From positions 8,000-71,999 of the forward strand of contig CANFGH010000002.1 in the NCBI GenBank assembly GCA_947446285.1: DNA of 64,000 nt. The letters are read 5' to 3'. Numbering within the stretch: the first letter of the stretch is position 1; every line of letters starts with the position of its first letter. This DNA comes from Chloroflexota bacterium (GTDB lineage: Bacteria; Chloroflexota; UBA11872; UBA12225). Under the pieces are notes generated by a model that was given only the letters and a program-made list of their open reading frames with translations, was not told the origin of the DNA and made no database searches. This document shows, piece after piece, positions 44,314-52,004 of this stretch. Position numbers and translations under genes: made by a program.

Positions 44314-45126
44314 ATGATCCGCCGACGCTTCTTGCGTGCCGGACGCGACCCGGACGCGCCCGCACCCATCCCGCTATCCATCTCAGACCTCTCCCCGTGG
44401 TCGGATGATTTGCAGGGTGACAGTATTTCCCTCATTCCATCGCACACCAGCCCTGTCAAAGTCGTCGGGCGGCAGTCTTGGAGTGCAGATACCAGGGGGA
44501 GACCAAGTACCGATGAATCACCGCTGGGTCGGACTCGGTCTGGGGCCCGGTCACCCGGCACCCGCCGACACCGTGACGCAAATGGTCCGCCAATCGAACC
44601 AGCTGGTGACCCGCGTCCTCGCGCCGCCGCCCGTGCGTTTGACGCCCTCGCCTCATGCGCGCACACCGTGAAGCAGATGCGAACCAGATTGACACGCGCC
44701 GGTTTCGAAGACGACGTGGTTACCGATACCGTGACACGATTGCTCGAACTCGGATACCTGAACGATGGGACGTACGCCGACTCCTGGGTCGCAACCCGGC
44801 GTGAACAACGCCTGCATGGCGAGGTTCGCCTCCGCCATGACTTGGCGCAAAGTGGCGTCGCCCCCGAGACCATCATCCTCGCCGTCGTCGACGATGGCGA
44901 GGAGCTGAACCGTGCCAGGGCCGCCATCGAGAGACGGGTCGGTTCCCTCGCCGGTTTGGACCGGGAAGCATTCTCGCGACGACTAGGATCGTTCCTCGCC
45001 CGACGTGGGTTCCGCGCGTCTATCGTCACCGCGGTTGTCCGCGATGCATTCGCCTCATCGGCAGACGACAGCGACCCTCCGGTTATCTCAGAGGATGAAC
45101 TGGACGCAAGCACCGACAGCGAGTGA
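44314..45126 (+). CDS. recX: Recombination regulator RecX
   Basis: C-terminal ~170 aa show RecX three-helix repeats: AFDALASCAHTVKQMRTRLTRAGFEDDVVTDTVTRLLELGYLNDGTYADSWV...FLARRGFRASIV. The N-terminal ~100 aa are Arg/Pro-rich and the start is uncertain (44284, 44296 or 44314 are in frame). Confidence 0.7.
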   Translation: MIRRRFLRAGRDPDAPAPIPLSISDLSPWSDDLQGDSISLIPSHTSPVKVVGRQSWSADTRGRPSTDESPLGRTRSGARSPGTRRHRDANGPPIEPAGDPRPRAAARAFDALASCAHTVKQMRTRLTRAGFEDDVVTDTVTRLLELGYLNDGTYADSWVATRREQRLHGEVRLRHDLAQSGVAPETIILAVVDDGEELNRARAAIERRVGSLAGLDREAFSRRLGSFLARRGFRASIVTAVVRDAFASSADDSDPPVISEDELDASTDSE

Positions 45127-45177: not shown

Positions 45178-46164
45178 ATGGATGATTCTTTCGGACTGAT
45201 CCGGGACTTCAGTTCCACTGGGAGTGACTACCCTGAGACGGTTCGGATCTTCAACCATATCGAAGGTGAGGACGGCCTGACAGTCGAGGCACTCCGCGCC
45301 TAGGATGAGGGATGGCCTCGAGACACGTACCGCGCCCACCGGTGGGTGGCCGTATCCAACGACGGCGACGCAGTCGGATGCTGCGATGCCACGCACGTGC
45401 CCAATCAGTTCGACTCAAGCCGGTATAGCGTCCTCGTCTTCGTCTTCGTCTCATCAAGCTACCAACGGCAGCAGTGGGGGACACGCCTGCTTGGGCATGC
45501 CGAGGCGTTCCTGAAACCGCTGGGTGCGCGCGAACTGATCGGGGCGGCGAAGGCGAACGCAGTCGGCAGCATTTTCTTCCTTGGGAAACACGGGTTCGAA
45601 GAAACGCACCGGCTATGGGAATCGCACCTTGATGTCGCGATGTTCAACATATCACGGTTCTCTGGTGAACGTGCCCGGACCGACGCCGCCGGCATAACCA
45701 TCAGAACATCGACGAACGAGCGATCGCGCACTCCCAACTGCATCGAAAGGCTTCATGACCTCCATACCGGGATTGAGGCTGACGTACCCCGACCGGTCCA
45801 AGCAAATGCAGTTTCAATTGAAACCTTTACCTCGCAAGTGACCGATCATTCCACGACAATTCCGGAGGCCTTCCTGATAGCGTGCCGGGGCGAGGAATAT
45901 GTCGGCCTCACGCATTTGCGCCGGGTTCCCAGACTTCCCCGCATGCTGTCGCAAGCCTTGACCGGAGTGACCCGCCAAGCGCGAGGCCTGGGCATTGCAA
46001 AAGCCCTCAAGGTGGCGGGCATCTAATGGGCGCGGGCACAAGGCATCGCGGAAATCAGGACGTGGAACAGTCAGCGCAATCCACGCACGATTTCCATCAA
46101 CGAACGTTTCGGATTCATTCGTGAGGTCGCGGTGTGCGAGTTCCGCAAGGACCTCTCCGAATGA
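45178..46164 (+). pseudogene. Two-domain GNAT N-acetyltransferase interrupted by two in-frame stop codons (TAG 45301-45303, TAA 46024-46026)
   Basis: One frame reads MDDSFGLIRDFSSTGSDYPETVRIFNHIEGEDGLTVEALRA*DEGWPRDTYRAHRWVAVSNDGDAVG...YQRQQWGTRLLGHAEAFL...TGVTRQARGLGIAKALKVAGI*WARAQGIAEIRTWNSQRNPRTISINERFGF...SE. GNAT motifs continue on both sides of each stop. Confidence 0.75.
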
Positions 46165-47474: not shown

Positions 47475-50126
47475 ATGGAACGTACGTACGAACCCACCCC
47501 CTCGCCGGCACCATCACCGGACATCCGGCAGTTCCTTGCCACCCAACTCAATCCACCGCAGATGGACGCCGTCTCCCACGGGGATGGTCCCTTGCTGATC
47601 CTTGCAGGCGCCGGATCGGGCAAGACCAGGGTCATCGCCTACCGGATTGCCTACATCATCCGGGAACGCCAGATCCCACCGTGGCAAATCCTCGCCGTCA
47701 CATTCACCAACAAGGCAGCCCGCGAACTTACCCACCGCGTGACCGAACTTACCGGCGAGGATCAGGCACGCCAGGTCAGGATGGGCACCTTCCACGGTCT
47801 CTGTGCCCGTTTTCTCCGCTCGGAGATCGAACTACTCTCTCGGCGCTACGACCGGAACTTCACGATCTACGACACTGACGATCAATTGCGCGTCCTCAAG
47901 AGGCAGTTCGCCGAGGCCGGCCTCAACCCGAAGCTGGTCAGCCCGAACGCTGTCCTGGGTGCGATCGGTCGACTGAAGGACCGACTGGTCAGCCCGGCCC
48001 AAGCGGCGAGTGCGAGTGAGGCCCACAACCCCTTCGAGACCGCCGTCGCAACCCTCTACCGGCGGTACCAGGACGCCCTCGAGGCGGCCAACGCGGTCGA
48101 TTTCGGCGACCTCATTAACCTGATGCTTCAGTTGCTCGAGAATTTCCCGGACGTTCGGCAACGCTACGCCAACAGGTACCGGCACGTCCTCGTCGATGAA
48201 TACCAGGACGTCAACGAAGCGCAATACCGCCTCGTCAAGGCCATCGCCGGCGACCACCGCAACCTCACCGTGGTAGGTGACGACTCGCAGGCGATCTATG
48301 GATGGCGTGGCGCTGACGTCCGCTACATCCTGCAGTTCGAACAGGACTTCGCCGAGTGCACCACGGTCCGTCTTGAACAGAACTACCGGTCGACCCAGAC
48401 GATCCTTGTCGCCGCCCAAGCCATCGAGGCCGGTCTGACCAAACGCCACGCCAAGGAACTGTGGACGGCAAACCGGAAGGGTGACCCGATCACCGGCGTC
48501 GTGGCCGGGAACGAGACTGACGAAGCCCAGTTTGTGATCCGGGAGATTGACCGCCTCGTCGTTACGGGCATCGCCTACCGCCAGATCGCAATCCTTTACC
48601 GAACCAACGCGCAGTCTCGCGTCCTCGAGGAACAGTTGGTACGCCGTCGCCTGCCGTTCCAGATGGTTGGAGGTACCCGCTTCTATGATCGGCGGGAGAT
48701 CAAGGAGGTCATCGCCTACCTGCATCTCTTGGTCAACCCATACGACGCGGATGCATTCAGGCGTGCCGGCGCGACACGCAAAGGCCTTGGCGACACCACC
48801 ATCGACAAGTTCGTCGCGTGGGCGGCCGAGACATCGAGGCCAGTCGTCGATGGTCTGATCTCGTTGCTGCGTGCGGAAGCCACGGAACGTCCTGCCCCAT
48901 TGATCAATGGCGCGGTTGAACCAGACCTGGATGAACGGTCAGGGGTTCTGGGACCTCTGCCGTGGAACCGTCGCGCCCATGAACTCCTCCTCGCCTACGC
49001 CCGCGACCTCGATGCGTTGATCACGGGCCTCCGCACCCTTTCACTCCCCGACCTCCTCGACCTCCTCCTCAAGCGGACCGGCTTCCGGGAGTACCTTCTC
49101 GAACACCGGGACGACAACGGTGAGGAACGGTGGGATAACGTCCAGGAACTCAAGTCCGTCGTCACTGAGTACGGGGCATCGGGTGCCGATGAGGGACTGC
49201 GACTCTTCTTGGAGAATGCAGCCCTTGTCTCGGATGCCGACACCATCCGGGCCGGACCACGTGATGACGTGGTGACCCTGATGACCCTCCACACCGCGAA
49301 AGGGCTTGAGTTCCCCGCGGTCTTCATCGTCGGCATGGAAGAGGGCATTTTTCCGCACTCACGCGCCCTTGAGGAAGGCAATATCGACGAGGAACGACGC
49401 CTTTGCTACGTCGGGATCACGCGGGCGATGCAGTCGCTCTATCTCGTCGGCTGCCGCTCGCGTTCATTCCGCGGCATGTTCGTCGAAAACGATCCCTCGC
49501 GATTCCTCCGGGAACTTCCCGGTGAACTCGTCCGGTGGGTCGATGGCAATGGCTTCCGCCTCGATGCAGCGCGGGTCATGGCGATGCAGTCCGGCGCGTG
49601 GCCCGGCCACGGCGCGTCACGCGCCGCCGGATACTGGGGCGGCGGAACGGCCACAGGTTCGCCGCCTAATGGATCGCTTCCCCCCGTCGATCCTAACCGT
49701 CCACCCCCGCCCGGTGCCCCCACGCCAATCAGGCCATGGTCCGGACAGGCCACTCGGGTCGGCGGTCCTTCCGCGTCCCGCCAGCCATCATCTGGACCCT
49801 CCGGACTTGGGATTCCCAACATCCGAGAATTCAACGGTCCCGCCCCGACCCCACTGCGACCCGGACTGGAGAACATTTCTGGACTGCGGCGTGCTAGCGA
49901 TCTCACTCCGGGAATCGGCCGGGCCCAGACACCTCCGGCACCCCCCGCCCCGCCTTCGCCGACCTACGGTCTCGACGAACGAGTCCGTCACCCCTCGTTC
50001 GGGGATGGCACGGTCATCGAGATAGAACCGGGGCGCGGAACCGAAGTCATGATCCAGGTGAAGTTCGACACCGTCGGGGTCAAGAAGCTGTCCACTGGCC
50101 TCGCACCGTTGACCCGTATCCCGTGA
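47475..50126 (+). CDS. pcrA: ATP-dependent DNA helicase PcrA/UvrD family
   Basis: 883-aa ORF. LNPPQMDAV, AGAGSGKT, VLVDEYQDVN, TLHTAKGLEFPAVFIVG. A ~130-aa Pro/Gly-rich linker precedes the C-terminal RVRHPSFGDGTVIEIE module. Confidence 0.9.
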   Translation: MERTYEPTPSPAPSPDIRQFLATQLNPPQMDAVSHGDGPLLILAGAGSGKTRVIAYRIAYIIRERQIPPWQILAVTFTNKAARELTHRVTELTGEDQARQVRMGTFHGLCARFLRSEIELLSRRYDRNFTIYDTDDQLRVLKRQFAEAGLNPKLVSPNAVLGAIGRLKDRLVSPAQAASASEAHNPFETAVATLYRRYQDALEAANAVDFGDLINLMLQLLENFPDVRQRYANRYRHVLVDEYQDVNEAQYRLVKAIAGDHRNLTVVGDDSQAIYGWRGADVRYILQFEQDFAECTTVRLEQNYRSTQTILVAAQAIEAGLTKRHAKELWTANRKGDPITGVVAGNETDEAQFVIREIDRLVVTGIAYRQIAILYRTNAQSRVLEEQLVRRRLPFQMVGGTRFYDRREIKEVIAYLHLLVNPYDADAFRRAGATRKGLGDTTIDKFVAWAAETSRPVVDGLISLLRAEATERPAPLINGAVEPDLDERSGVLGPLPWNRRAHELLLAYARDLDALITGLRTLSLPDLLDLLLKRTGFREYLLEHRDDNGEERWDNVQELKSVVTEYGASGADEGLRLFLENAALVSDADTIRAGPRDDVVTLMTLHTAKGLEFPAVFIVGMEEGIFPHSRALEEGNIDEERRLCYVGITRAMQSLYLVGCRSRSFRGMFVENDPSRFLRELPGELVRWVDGNGFRLDAARVMAMQSGAWPGHGASRAAGYWGGGTATGSPPNGSLPPVDPNRPPPPGAPTPIRPWSGQATRVGGPSASRQPSSGPSGLGIPNIREFNGPAPTPLRPGLENISGLRRASDLTPGIGRAQTPPAPPAPPSPTYGLDERVRHPSFGDGTVIEIEPGRGTEVMIQVKFDTVGVKKLSTGLAPLTRIP

Positions 50127-50364: not shown

Positions 50365-51076
50365 ATGTCTAGTGAACGCGACGCACTGAACGGACCCGAC
50401 CAGAACGACGACGACGCAAGCACAGCGTCCGGAAATCACGGGTCACGGGTCGGGGAAGTGGACGAGGCAGATGTTTCCCTTGCACGGCGGATTGCCATAC
50501 GTGACGTCGCCGCACTCGAAGCGGTTTACAACCGCTATTCGCGTCCGGTCTACTCGCTGGCCAGGAGGCTTCTGCGAGACGACGAAACTACCGTGGAAGT
50601 GGTGCAGGAAGTCTTCATGCGCCTCTGGACGCGTGCAGATGAGTTCGATTCCAAGCGCGGACGGCTCCTCACCTGGCTCCTCACCATCACCCATCACCCA
50701 TCACCGTGCGATTGACGAACTTCGTCGACGCCGCGCCCGGGGGCAGCACGATGACATCGACATCGTTCTGGCAACTGCCGAAGCGCCAGATGGTGATCCC
50801 GCCCATAAAGCTGCACTTGCAGAGACCCGCGAAGCGGTGCGGCGGGCGCTTCAACACCTGCCAGTGGCACAGCGGCGCCCTATCGAGCTTGCGTACTTCG
50901 GAGGGCTTTCGCAACCCGAAATCGCCGCCATGCTTGAGGAACCTCTCGGGACAATCAAGACCAGAATGCGTCTCGCCATGCAAAAGCTTCGGGAGTTCCT
51001 GCGCGCCGACCGCAACCCGCCCGAGGAGCACCGTCGTTTTCCGGACCCAACACCGCGTCGCATCCCAGCGTCGTGA
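50365..51076 (+). pseudogene. ECF (sigma-70 family) RNA polymerase sigma factor, split by a frameshift at a CCATCAC x3 repeat
   Basis: Region 2 (YNRYSRPVYSLARRLLRDDETTVEVVQEVFMRLW..LLTWLLTITHH) is in one frame and stops at 50713-50715. Region 4 (RAIDELRRRR...LPVAQRRPIELAYFGGLSQPEIAAMLEEPLGTIKTRMRLAMQKLREFL) continues in the +1 frame to 51076. Confidence 0.8.
50684..50704 (+). repeat. Perfect tandem heptamer CCATCAC x3 at the sigma-factor frameshift point
   Basis: Read directly: a|ccatcac|ccatcac|ccatcac|cgtg. Two copies would give the in-frame reading ..WLLTITHHRAIDELRRRR.. Confidence 0.95.
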
Positions 51077-51121: not shown

Positions 51122-51787
51122 GTGGCGATGACCGGACCGCGTTCATGGCGCGAGCCCGGTGTGCTGGCACGTCTGTCACGGATCGTCCAATCCCGCCTCG
51201 GGTCCGCGGTAAGCACTGCCTGCCCCGTCGAGTGCCCTGACGATGCCATGCACTACCTGATCGGTTCAATGCCCACCGCTGATCGGGCGCGCTTCGAGGG
51301 TCACCTCCGGTGGTGCCTGAAGTGCCAGCGTGAGACGCAGTCGCTCGAACCGGTCATCGAGACCCTCGCCGGGACTGCGAAGCAGATCAGCCCGCCTGAA
51401 TACCTTGGTCGAGCCATCATCCGGCAGGCGCGCATCTCAACTGCGGTGATGGCTGGCACGCACCAAGGCGCATCACTCGGCGCGAGTCCGTTCACGCCAC
51501 TCATTGCATGGCTCAGCCACCGGCGTGTCGGAGCCATCGTGACCGCTGGGTCACTCGCACTGTGCATGGCCAGTCTTGGATGCTCCATGCTTCTTCATTC
51601 GCAGACGGCGCAGAATGCGTTGGTTGCTTCGCGCCTTGCCGAAACCCTCAGCCTCGTCTACCACCCCGGTGCGGTTACCCGGACCCTGGCGGGAACCGAT
51701 CGTGCGCCCCGGTCCACCGGACGCCTCGCGGTCATACCGGAAAGCAACCGCGCCGTCCTAGTTGTCGTCGCGGAACTTGGAGCGTGA
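51122..51787 (+). CDS. Anti-sigma factor (zf-HC2 type), probably 3'-truncated
   Basis: HLRWCLKCQ (H-x3-C-x2-C) after CPVECPDDAMHYLIGSMPTADRARFEG. One TM (VGAIVTAGSLALCMASLGCSMLL). The extracytoplasmic part stops abruptly (..GRLAVIPESNRAVLVVVAELGA*) where RskA-like domains normally continue. Start uncertain. Confidence 0.65.
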   Translation: MAMTGPRSWREPGVLARLSRIVQSRLGSAVSTACPVECPDDAMHYLIGSMPTADRARFEGHLRWCLKCQRETQSLEPVIETLAGTAKQISPPEYLGRAIIRQARISTAVMAGTHQGASLGASPFTPLIAWLSHRRVGAIVTAGSLALCMASLGCSMLLHSQTAQNALVASRLAETLSLVYHPGAVTRTLAGTDRAPRSTGRLAVIPESNRAVLVVVAELGA

Positions 51788-52004
51788 CGGCCTTGTGCGA
51801 CGCACGATCTACCCAGAGGTCCCGCCACGGGTCGAGTACGAACTGACCCCATTGGGACGCACACTCATCGAACCAGTCTCCGCCCTATCGGCGTGGGCAC
51901 TCGCCCACAGCGACGAAATCGAACACCACCGGGCATCGTCCATTGCGACCATTGGGAACGAAGCCAGTGGAGACGACGCTGACCGGTCTTCGCAAGTTGT
52001 CTGA
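51762..52004 (+). pseudogene. HxlR-type (winged-helix) transcription regulator, C-terminal fragment only
   Basis: LSSRNLERDGLVRRTIYPEVPPRVEYELTPLGRTLIEPVSALSAWALAH matches the recognition-helix/wing half of HxlR proteins. The frame is closed by TAG immediately upstream (51759-51761) and the N-terminal ~45 aa are missing. Confidence 0.7.

What the first reader, a model, noticed from the sequence alone, without database searches (positions are those of the whole stretch)
50684..50704. ECF sigma factor gene frameshifted exactly at a CCATCAC x3 tandem heptamer
Sigma region 2 (50365-50704) and region 4 (to 51076) are in different frames.

The switch point is a perfect triple heptamer, a|CCATCAC|CCATCAC|CCATCAC|cgtg. 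With two copies the reading is continuous: ..LLTWLLTITHH-RAIDELRRRR.., the normal region 2.4/linker sequence of ECF sigmas. With three copies the frame ends at TGA 50713-50715.

A unit length not divisible by 3 in a short tandem repeat is the classic substrate for slipped-strand ON/OFF switching. It may equally be a fixed inactivating duplication or an assembly error.
Basis: seen in the sequence. Interest (0 to 1): 0.6.

Follow-up and report, generated by a model that had tools for sequence, protein, structure and literature searches.

The report
Frameshifted sigma factor gene, polymorphic in nature
A stress-response sigma factor gene in an uncultured lake Chloroflexota bacterium is broken by a real 7-base tandem duplication that coexists in nature with the intact version, inside a regulatory module that is visibly decaying, so it is an ordinary slippage mutation caught mid-spread rather than a purpose-built on/off switch.

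Summary
CCATCAC x3 lies at 50684-50704, sigma region 2 and region 4 are in different frames, and the first frame stops at TGA 50713-50715.

It is not an assembly error. The identical broken ORF occurs on 18 contigs from at least 10 samples and two assemblers. It is not fixed either. The exact two-copy 234-aa protein occurs on 11 or more contigs of the same near-clonal species (>99.7% identical flanks). All four congeners carry two copies.

The context matters:
- Every contig of this lineage also carries a 1.14-kb deletion. It removes most of the RskA_C sensor domain of the cognate anti-sigma factor, a small membrane-protein gene and the 5' half of an HxlR regulator gene.
- A 98-99% identical sister strain keeps all of these intact.
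- One three-copy contig has a second frameshift, a 4-bp tandem duplication.
- One two-copy genome has a nonsense codon in the anti-sigma gene.
- No 1-, 4- or 5-copy alleles were found, and the genome is poor in repeat tracts.

Best reading: a slipped-strand loss-of-function allele segregating in a decaying SigK/RskA-like module, possibly as a suppressor of a deregulated sigma. An evolved phase switch is unlikely but not excluded.

The parts
50365..50715 (+). 5' part of the ECF sigma gene (sigma region 2). It gives a 116-aa product ending in the out-of-frame tail ...THHPSPCD and stops at TGA 50713-50715.
   Evidence: ORF list. Pfam Sigma70_r2, 2.6e-15. The identical 116-aa product, P0124, is on 18 public contigs.
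50684..50704 (+). CCATCAC x3 tandem heptamer. The periodic tract runs to 50705. Relatives and the intact allele have two copies, so this is a +7 bp insertion.
   Evidence: Alignment with congeners and conspecific contigs.
50705..51076 (+). 3' part of the sigma gene (end of region 2.4, linker, region 4), in the +1 frame relative to the 5' part. Stop at 51074-51076.
   Evidence: Pfam Sigma70_r4_2 1.4e-14 and Sigma70_ECF 8e-08. Continuous with the 5' part in the two-copy allele P0126.
50663..50685 (+). Adjacent 12-nt direct repeat GGCTCCTCACCT x1.9 (encodes LLTWLLT). It abuts the heptamer tract, so the motif TCACC recurs five times within 45 nt.
   Evidence: TRF and sequence.
50616..50619 (+). 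CATG, the site of a second frameshift seen only in contig L037. There it is tandemly duplicated (CATGCATG) on the three-copy background. It is single-copy in the window.
51122..51787 (+). Truncated anti-sigma factor gene (221 aa). It keeps the HxxxCxxC anti-sigma motif, the transmembrane helix and the first part of the extracytoplasmic domain. Homology to the full-length 291-308-aa orthologs stops at codon 213, and the last 8 codons are novel.
   Evidence: Pfam RskA_C in the orthologs. zf-HC2 is weak, at 16 bits. The identical 221/219-aa product is on 16+7 public contigs.
51760..51765 (.). Junction of a deletion of about 1,136 bp relative to the sister strain and all congeners. Lost are the 3' third of the anti-sigma gene, a minus-strand 153-164-aa membrane-protein gene and the 5' half of an HxlR gene.
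   Evidence: blastn breakpoints. Junction sequences. Gene content of the intact arrangement.
51762..52004 (+). 3' fragment of an HxlR-family regulator gene (profile positions 41-88 of 91 only).
   Evidence: Pfam HxlR 1.3e-12. The full-length 160-164-aa gene is present in sister strain L040/L041.

Best explanation
The window carries a genuine loss-of-function allele of a SigK-like ECF sigma factor gene.

How it arose and what it does:
- The allele arose by replication slippage at an incidental two-copy heptamer. The codons ACC ATC ACC CAT CAC encode the conserved residues TITHH of region 2.4. Slippage added a third copy (+7 bp).
- The product is cut after region 2, so no functional sigma is made.
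- The allele is neither fixed nor artefactual. It segregates with the intact two-copy allele in a near-clonal natural population of an uncultured freshwater Chloroflexota species.

Order of events (shown):
1. A 1.14-kb deletion removed most of the extracytoplasmic RskA_C domain of the co-transcribed anti-sigma factor, a membrane-protein gene and half of an HxlR regulator gene.
2. The 7-bp duplication followed in the sigma gene.
3. Separately, a 4-bp duplication arose on a three-copy background, and a nonsense codon arose in the anti-sigma gene on a two-copy background.

Inferred: after the sensor domain was lost, the module became useless or misregulated. Selection on the sigma gene was then relaxed, or favoured its inactivation, and the commonest kind of spontaneous frameshift rose to high frequency. 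The three-copy tract can in principle slip back, but this is a mutational hot spot, not an evolved switch.
For: - Ancestral state: all four congeners have two copies and an intact 234-aa gene.
- Real allele: the exact 116-aa broken product is on 18 contigs from at least 10 samples, assembled by MEGAHIT and by Logan.
- Polymorphic: the exact two-copy protein P0126 is on 11 contigs, and near-identical P0125 is on 2 more. Their flanks are >=99.7% identical to the window over 10-20 kb.
- Co-occurrence: a k=141 MEGAHIT contig (L023) ends at window base 50831. That is exactly the end of the first 141-mer shared by the two alleles, and only conspecific sequences share this 141-mer.
- Deletion: all 30 contigs of this lineage lack about 1,136 bp that is present in a 98-99% identical sister strain (L040/L041) and in every congener. 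The lost part holds most of RskA_C.
- Further decay: L037 carries three copies plus a CATG duplication, so slipping back would not restore its frame. L038 carries GAA->TAA at anti-sigma codon 172.
- Not a designed tract: more distant relatives encode TITHH with non-repeating codons. The genome has 242 two-copy heptamers but only 3 with three copies, and few long simple repeats. No 1-, 4- or 5-copy alleles were found by exact look-up.
- Literature: removing the extracytoplasmic tail of M. tuberculosis RskA locks SigK on (PMC7509140). P. aeruginosa anti-sigma mucA mutants are suppressed by reduced AlgU activity (PMC10069406; PMC3750012).
Against: - Both alleles persist at intermediate frequency (about 18 versus 13 contigs) in a population with almost no other variation. 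Frequent back-and-forth slippage would also produce this.
- The repeat site fails the four-gamete test against 38 of 47 informative sites, more than any SNP. This is compatible with recurrent mutation.
- The direction of the effect of the anti-sigma truncation is unknown. This sigma has no cysteines, unlike M. tuberculosis SigK, so the activating role of RskA may not apply.
- dN/dS of sigma against the sister strain (0.86, from 5 non-synonymous and 2 synonymous changes) is too imprecise to show relaxed selection.
- No read-level or expression data could be obtained.
Confidence: 0.75

Rival explanations
1. Reversible phase variation. The heptamer tract slips 2<->3 copies often enough that lineages toggle the sigma factor OFF and ON, giving the population a bet-hedging switch for this envelope or stress regulon.
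For: - The unit length is not divisible by 3, inside the ORF.
- Both states are common in a near-clonal population and lie on overlapping SNP backgrounds.
- A contig break at the predicted bubble merge point suggests both states in one sample.
- Three copies are more slip-prone than two. This rests on general knowledge of short tandem repeat hot spots such as lacI CTGG x3 (from memory).
Against: - Only 2 or 3 units occur. No 1-, 4- or 5-copy alleles were found.
- The repeat is a by-product of conserved codons and is absent at the DNA level outside the genus.
- The genome has no repertoire of repeat-tract genes.
- A three-copy lineage has a second frameshift, so it cannot switch back.
- The partner anti-sigma gene is already crippled, and in one genome is hit again.
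- SNP-SNP four-gamete failures are also frequent. Recombination or mosaic metagenome consensus explains the scrambled backgrounds without recurrent slippage.
Confidence: 0.13
2. Assembly or sequencing artefact. The true sequence has two copies and the third was introduced by the assembler.
For: The window comes from a fragmented metagenome-assembled genome (217 contigs, 89% complete). The raw reads could not be inspected.
Against: The identical three-copy allele was assembled independently in at least 10 samples by two pipelines, while other samples from the same accession series gave two copies. The tract is 22 nt, far shorter than any k-mer used, so it cannot confuse a de Bruijn graph. One three-copy contig carries a further private mutation.
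Confidence: 0.02
3. The three-copy gene is still expressed at a low level. One route is translational bypass: the peptidyl-tRNA on ATC, ACC or CAC of one repeat unit re-pairs with the identical codon 7 nt downstream, which would recreate the wild-type protein. The other route is separate sigma-2 and sigma-4 polypeptides.
For: A tandem duplication necessarily provides matched take-off and landing codons 7 nt apart (sequence). The frame that carries region 4 is open from 50471.
Against: No stimulatory element is evident, and the stop lies 3 codons after the tract, not at the take-off site. Spontaneous hops are inefficient (general knowledge, from memory). The sigma-2 fragment lacks the end of region 2.4. 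The second frameshift in L037 suggests the gene is not under selection in three-copy cells.
Confidence: 0.03

Closest known systems
mucA (anti-sigma) / algU (ECF sigma) evolution in Pseudomonas aeruginosa
   Same: A C-terminally truncated transmembrane anti-sigma factor deregulates its ECF sigma. Secondary mutations that lower or abolish sigma activity then arise and coexist with the parental type (PMC3750012, PMC10069406). The order seen here is the same: the anti-sigma gene is truncated first and the sigma gene is hit second.
   Different: Here no phenotype or sigma activity is known, and the direction of the effect of the truncation is inferred. The setting is a free-living lake bacterium, not a chronic infection. 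The sigma lesion is one recurrent-looking 7-bp duplication at high frequency.
SigK-RskA of the Mycobacterium tuberculosis complex (ECF19-type pair)
   Same: - The sigma's second-best NCBIfam match, nearly tied with the top hit, is the SigK subfamily.
- The cognate downstream anti-sigma factor carries the RskA_C domain in relatives.
- Natural mutations in the extracytoplasmic part of RskA, and an artificial deletion of its C-terminal tail, change SigK activity (PMC7509140).
   Different: - The sigma scores below the SigK model cut-off (157 versus 226 bits).
- It has no cysteines, so the redox-sensitive SigK-RskA contact cannot apply.
- The truncation here removes about 57% of RskA_C rather than a short tail.
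- The sigma itself is additionally frameshifted.
Slipped-strand frameshift hot spots at short tandem repeats (e.g. the lacI CTGG x3 hot spot of E. coli; from memory, not checked here)
   Same: A two- or three-copy repeat with a unit not divisible by three gains one unit and inactivates the gene. The expanded tract is itself prone to lose the unit again.
   Different: That case is a laboratory mutation spectrum. Here the allele has reached roughly half of the assembled contigs of a wild population.
Simple-sequence contingency loci (phase-variable genes of Neisseria, Haemophilus, Campylobacter and others)
   Same: An intragenic repeat whose copy number sets the reading frame, and copy number that differs among very close relatives.
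   Different: Contingency loci have long tracts with many length variants. They are maintained as DNA repeats and occur in sets per genome. Here the maximum is 3 units, only two states occur, the codon origin is incidental, there is no genome-wide repertoire, and the surrounding module is decaying.

Membership tests
ECF (group 4) sigma-70 factors | Sigma region 2 and region 4 domains only, about 200 aa | tested here: met
   Pfam Sigma70_r2, Sigma70_r4_2 and Sigma70_ECF. TIGR02937 sigma70-ECF scores 110.8 bits against a cut-off of 42.9 on the two-copy protein.
ECF (group 4) sigma-70 factors | Uninterrupted reading frame in this genome | tested here: not met
   The +7 bp insertion shifts the frame, with a stop at 50713-50715.
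SigK/RskA-type (ECF19-like) sigma/anti-sigma pair | Sigma reaches the SigK subfamily model threshold | tested here: not met
   NF007228 SigK scores 156.6 bits against a cut-off of 226. It is nearly tied with the best hit, PRK12519 (157.9 bits against 222).
SigK/RskA-type (ECF19-like) sigma/anti-sigma pair | Co-oriented downstream transmembrane anti-sigma factor with an RskA_C domain | tested here: met
   Met in the orthologs and the sister strain: PF10099 scores 52-53 bits against a cut-off of 29.4. In the window the domain is cut at codon 213 and no longer scores.
SigK/RskA-type (ECF19-like) sigma/anti-sigma pair | Redox-sensing cysteine pair in the sigma (M. tuberculosis C133/C183, PMC7509140) | tested here: not met
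   The 234-aa protein contains no cysteine (sequence).
Simple-sequence contingency (phase-variable) locus | Intragenic tandem repeat with a unit not divisible by 3, whose copy number sets the frame | tested here: met
Simple-sequence contingency (phase-variable) locus | Copy number differs among otherwise near-identical genomes | tested here: met
   Two versus three copies on contigs >=99.7% identical.
Simple-sequence contingency (phase-variable) locus | Long, hypermutable tract with a spectrum of lengths | tested here: not met
   Only 2 and 3 units were seen. Products of 1-, 4- and 5-copy alleles are absent from 15 billion proteins. Pattern scans allowing 1-4 units found only 2.
Simple-sequence contingency (phase-variable) locus | High-frequency reversible switching within a clone | not testable with these tools
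The four-gamete test was inconclusive.
Pseudogene / decaying module | Disabling lesion relative to intact orthologs, plus independent further lesions in the same module | tested here: met
   The +7 bp insertion, the 1.14-kb deletion, the +4 bp insertion in L037 and the nonsense codon in L038.
Pseudogene / decaying module | Lesion fixed in the species | tested here: not met
   The intact two-copy allele is on 13 conspecific contigs.

The most novel reading that the evidence does not exclude
The 7-bp duplication in the sigma gene and the independent nonsense codon in the anti-sigma gene are alternative adaptive suppressors of a sigma factor deregulated by the sensor-domain deletion. The three-copy tract also reverts often enough to work as a de facto reversible OFF/ON switch. 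That would keep both states in a wild, near-clonal population of an uncultured Chloroflexota species.
Probability: 0.12. Interest if true: 0.6.

Novelty: new member of a known kind. Interest (0 to 1): 0.3.

Why it matters
This is a clean, datable series of steps in the loss of a sigma/anti-sigma signalling module in a wild population of an uncultured lineage (class-level clade UBA2235 of Chloroflexota). The steps are a sensor-domain deletion, then a slippage frameshift in the sigma gene, then secondary hits.

It shows that a frameshift in a metagenome-assembled genome can be a true, common allele rather than an error. It also gives a natural test case for the idea that anti-sigma truncation drives secondary loss of the sigma, as in mucA/algU. 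It does not reveal a new mechanism.

Tried and rejected
- **Read-level check.** The look-up of sequencing runs and read laying were both closed, so allele fractions within samples could not be measured.
- **Pattern scans.** Scans of JGI metagenomes and GTDB genomes allowing 1-4 repeat units found only two-copy congeners.
- **Whole-locus alignment.** A 20-kb MAFFT alignment timed out. Pairwise blastn mapping replaced it.
- **Single versus recurrent origin.** The repeat site fails the four-gamete test against 38 of 47 informative sites. SNP-SNP failures are also common, up to 28 of 46. Several failures come from short imported tracts shared by two- and three-copy contigs. Recombination, mosaic consensus and recurrent slippage therefore cannot be separated.
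- **dN/dS against the sister strain.** Sigma 0.86 and anti-sigma 0.74 versus pcrA 0.39, but from only 6-7 substitutions each, so it is inconclusive.
- **Logan contig L024.** It ends at 50730, which does not fit the k=31 bubble boundary of 50721. A congener SNP at 50731 is a likelier cause (sequences). It is not used as evidence.
- **Other copy numbers.** Exact look-up of the predicted 1-, 4- and 5-copy products was negative.
- **Split or bypass expression.** Considered and rated unlikely.

Full report
**1. Observation**

The sequence at 50684-50704 is exactly CCATCAC x3, preceded by A and followed by CGTG. Tandem Repeats Finder reports period 7, 3.1 copies and 100% matches over 50684-50705. 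The 21-mer is unique in the window, with 0 expected in shuffles.

The ORF starting at ATG 50365 ends at TGA 50713-50715 and carries Pfam Sigma70_r2. The next frame, open to 51076, carries Sigma70_r4_2 and the C-terminal half of Sigma70_ECF. Read with two copies, the product is a 234-aa ECF sigma factor. Its region-2 match then becomes complete, rising from 56 to 69 bits and reaching profile position 70 of 71.

**2. Ancestral state**

The window is part of a metagenome-assembled genome of 217 contigs, 89% complete. It belongs to the uncultured Chloroflexota lineage that includes MAG UBA2235 (PMC10608941).

Three same-genus genomes have an uninterrupted ortholog at 80-91% amino-acid identity. 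In the fourth, the gene runs off a contig end. At the DNA level the two closest congeners read ACCATCACCCATCACCGTGCG, which is two copies. Across the family the peptide WLLTITHHRAIDELRRRR is conserved, but it is encoded by non-repeating codons such as ACGATCACTCACCAC. Pattern scans of JGI metagenomes and GTDB genomes that allowed 1-4 units found only two-copy sequences.

The two-copy repeat is therefore an incidental codon arrangement. The third copy is a derived +7 bp tandem duplication, the classic product of replication slippage.

**3. Real and polymorphic**

| Allele | Product | Where found |
|---|---|---|
| Three copies | P0124, the window's 116-aa truncated product | 18 contigs read; 10 loci from 10 samples fetched, from MEGAHIT and Logan assemblies and an NCBI MAG; all fetched loci carry three copies |
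| Two copies | P0126, the exact 234-aa protein | 11 contigs |
| Two copies | P0125, a one-residue variant | 2 contigs |

The flanks of both allele classes are >=99.7% identical to the window over 10-20 kb. Both classes occur in neighbouring accessions of the same ENA series: 191 and 197 have three copies, 192 and 196 have two.

One MEGAHIT k=141 contig (L023) terminates at window base 50831. That is exactly the end of the first 141-mer shared by the two alleles, and only conspecific sequences share this 141-mer. This suggests a two-copy conspecific in the same sample.

Assembly error and a fixed pseudogene are both ruled out.

**4. The cognate anti-sigma factor is already damaged**

The downstream ORF 51122-51787 has an HxxxCxxC anti-sigma motif and a transmembrane helix. 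Homology to all relatives stops at 51759-51763. Orthologs are 291-308 aa and end in a Pfam RskA_C domain.

About 1,136 bp present in all four congeners is missing from the window. It is also missing from every two- and three-copy contig of this lineage.

A sister strain (L040/L041, 98-99% nucleotide identity) retains it:
- sigma, 234 aa
- anti-sigma, 291-293 aa, with RskA_C at residues 158-286
- a minus-strand 153-164-aa membrane protein
- a full 160-164-aa HxlR regulator

The deletion therefore removed about 57% of the sensor domain, the membrane-protein gene and the DNA-binding half of HxlR. The HxlR fragment at 51762-52004 is what remains. Because both sigma alleles carry the deletion, it came before the 7-bp duplication.

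**5. Further independent lesions**

Contig L037 has three copies plus a 4-bp tandem duplication (CATG, window 50616-50619). The total is +11 bp, so losing a heptamer would not restore its frame. Genome L038 has the intact two-copy sigma but a GAA->TAA nonsense mutation at anti-sigma codon 172 (window 51641), just after the membrane helix.

Four separate disabling events in one small module within one species indicate decay, or selection against the module's activity.

**6. Single origin or recurrent slippage**

The population is nearly clonal. The few informative SNPs occur on both repeat backgrounds: the repeat fails the four-gamete test against 38 of 47 sites. SNP pairs also fail frequently. 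Several of the failures are short imported tracts shared between a two-copy and a three-copy contig (for example 47996-48143, and 50012-50027). Metagenome contigs are also consensus mosaics of co-occurring strains.

Recombination, mosaic consensus and recurrent slippage cannot be told apart without reads.

**7. Is the tract a designed switch?**

- Predicted products of 1-, 4- and 5-copy alleles are absent from the 15-billion-protein collection.
- Genome-wide there are 242 two-copy heptamers but only 3 three-copy ones, few tracts of any period with three or more units, and one homopolymer of 10 or more bases.
- The organism therefore has no repertoire of simple-sequence contingency genes.
- The precursor site is one of hundreds of equivalent slip sites.

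**8. Mechanism**

*Shown:* slippage-type +7 bp duplication, then a frameshift, then a stop 3 codons later. The product is a region-2-only fragment lacking the end of helix 2.4, the linker and region 4, so no functional sigma is made.

*Inferred:* loss of the RskA_C domain either left the module unable to sense its signal or deregulated the sigma. In M. tuberculosis, deleting the extracytoplasmic tail of RskA locks SigK in an active state, while deeper truncations do not (PMC7509140). In P. aeruginosa, truncated MucA deregulates AlgU, and reduced-activity AlgU variants relieve the cost (PMC10069406, PMC3750012).

On that model, the sigma frameshift and the deeper anti-sigma truncation in L038 would be alternative suppressors.

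One caution applies. This sigma has no cysteines, and the same paper reports cysteine-free SigK proteins that work without activation by RskA. The sign of the effect is therefore uncertain, and neutral decay is about equally likely.

**9. Family placement**

The protein is an ECF sigma: TIGR02937 is above its cut-off. Its best NCBIfam subfamily hits (PRK12519 and SigK) are below their cut-offs. Together with the RskA_C anti-sigma factor, it is SigK/RskA-like but not a demonstrated member.

As a phenomenon it is a new example of known kinds: a slipped-strand frameshift polymorphism, and secondary loss of a sigma factor after damage to its anti-sigma factor.

**10. Verdict**

- The slipped-strand origin and the copy-number heterogeneity are confirmed.
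- An evolved ON/OFF switch is unlikely (about 0.13), and an artefact is essentially excluded.
- Interest is moderate to low. The value lies in a well-resolved natural series of module decay and in showing that a MAG frameshift can be a true common allele.

Noticed in passing
window 45178-46164: A double-GNAT acetyltransferase gene has two in-frame stop codons (45301, 46024) in the window. Conspecific contigs call it as 47-aa and 226-aa pieces. Contig L028 has an intact 326-aa gene, but inside a divergent tract. One sister-strain contig (L041) has a 287-aa gene, while the other (L040) is split. This is another decaying gene within 5 kb of the sigma.
   Followed up: partly
window 47996-48143 (pcrA); 44637-44745; 50012-50027; L028 left part = window 41.5-46.5 kb: Short clusters of SNPs, 16 within 150 bp in pcrA, are shared by otherwise near-identical contigs (L020 and L039; L020 and L028; L018 and L031). 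L028 is about 10% divergent over 5 kb and then near-identical. These look like imported recombination tracts or chimeric metagenome consensus.
   Followed up: partly
L041:7650-8144 (-), absent from the window (deleted): The gene lost between the anti-sigma and HxlR genes encodes a 153-164-aa hydrophobic protein with no Pfam match. It is divergently oriented to HxlR, the usual layout of a regulator and its target.
   Followed up: partly
genome contigs C106:8090, C7:12681, C1:1, C7:10231, C15:39569, C66:2172: A few longer tandem arrays occur elsewhere in the genome: CCCGGCAA x9, CGCCGTGGG x9, CGCAACTGG x8 at a contig end, and several hexamers x5. They were not examined for coding context.
   Followed up: no
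window 50663-50685: A 12-nt direct repeat, GGCTCCTCACCT x1.9 (encodes LLTWLLT), directly abuts the heptamer tract. This gives a 45-nt stretch dense in TCACC repeats.
   Followed up: no
L015 / G001 record title: The closest congener MAG (ZH-03apr19-133) is deposited under the name Thermoflexus hugenholtzii JAD2. It shares 92-95% nucleotide identity with this UBA2235-type lineage, so the name looks like a mislabel.
   Followed up: no
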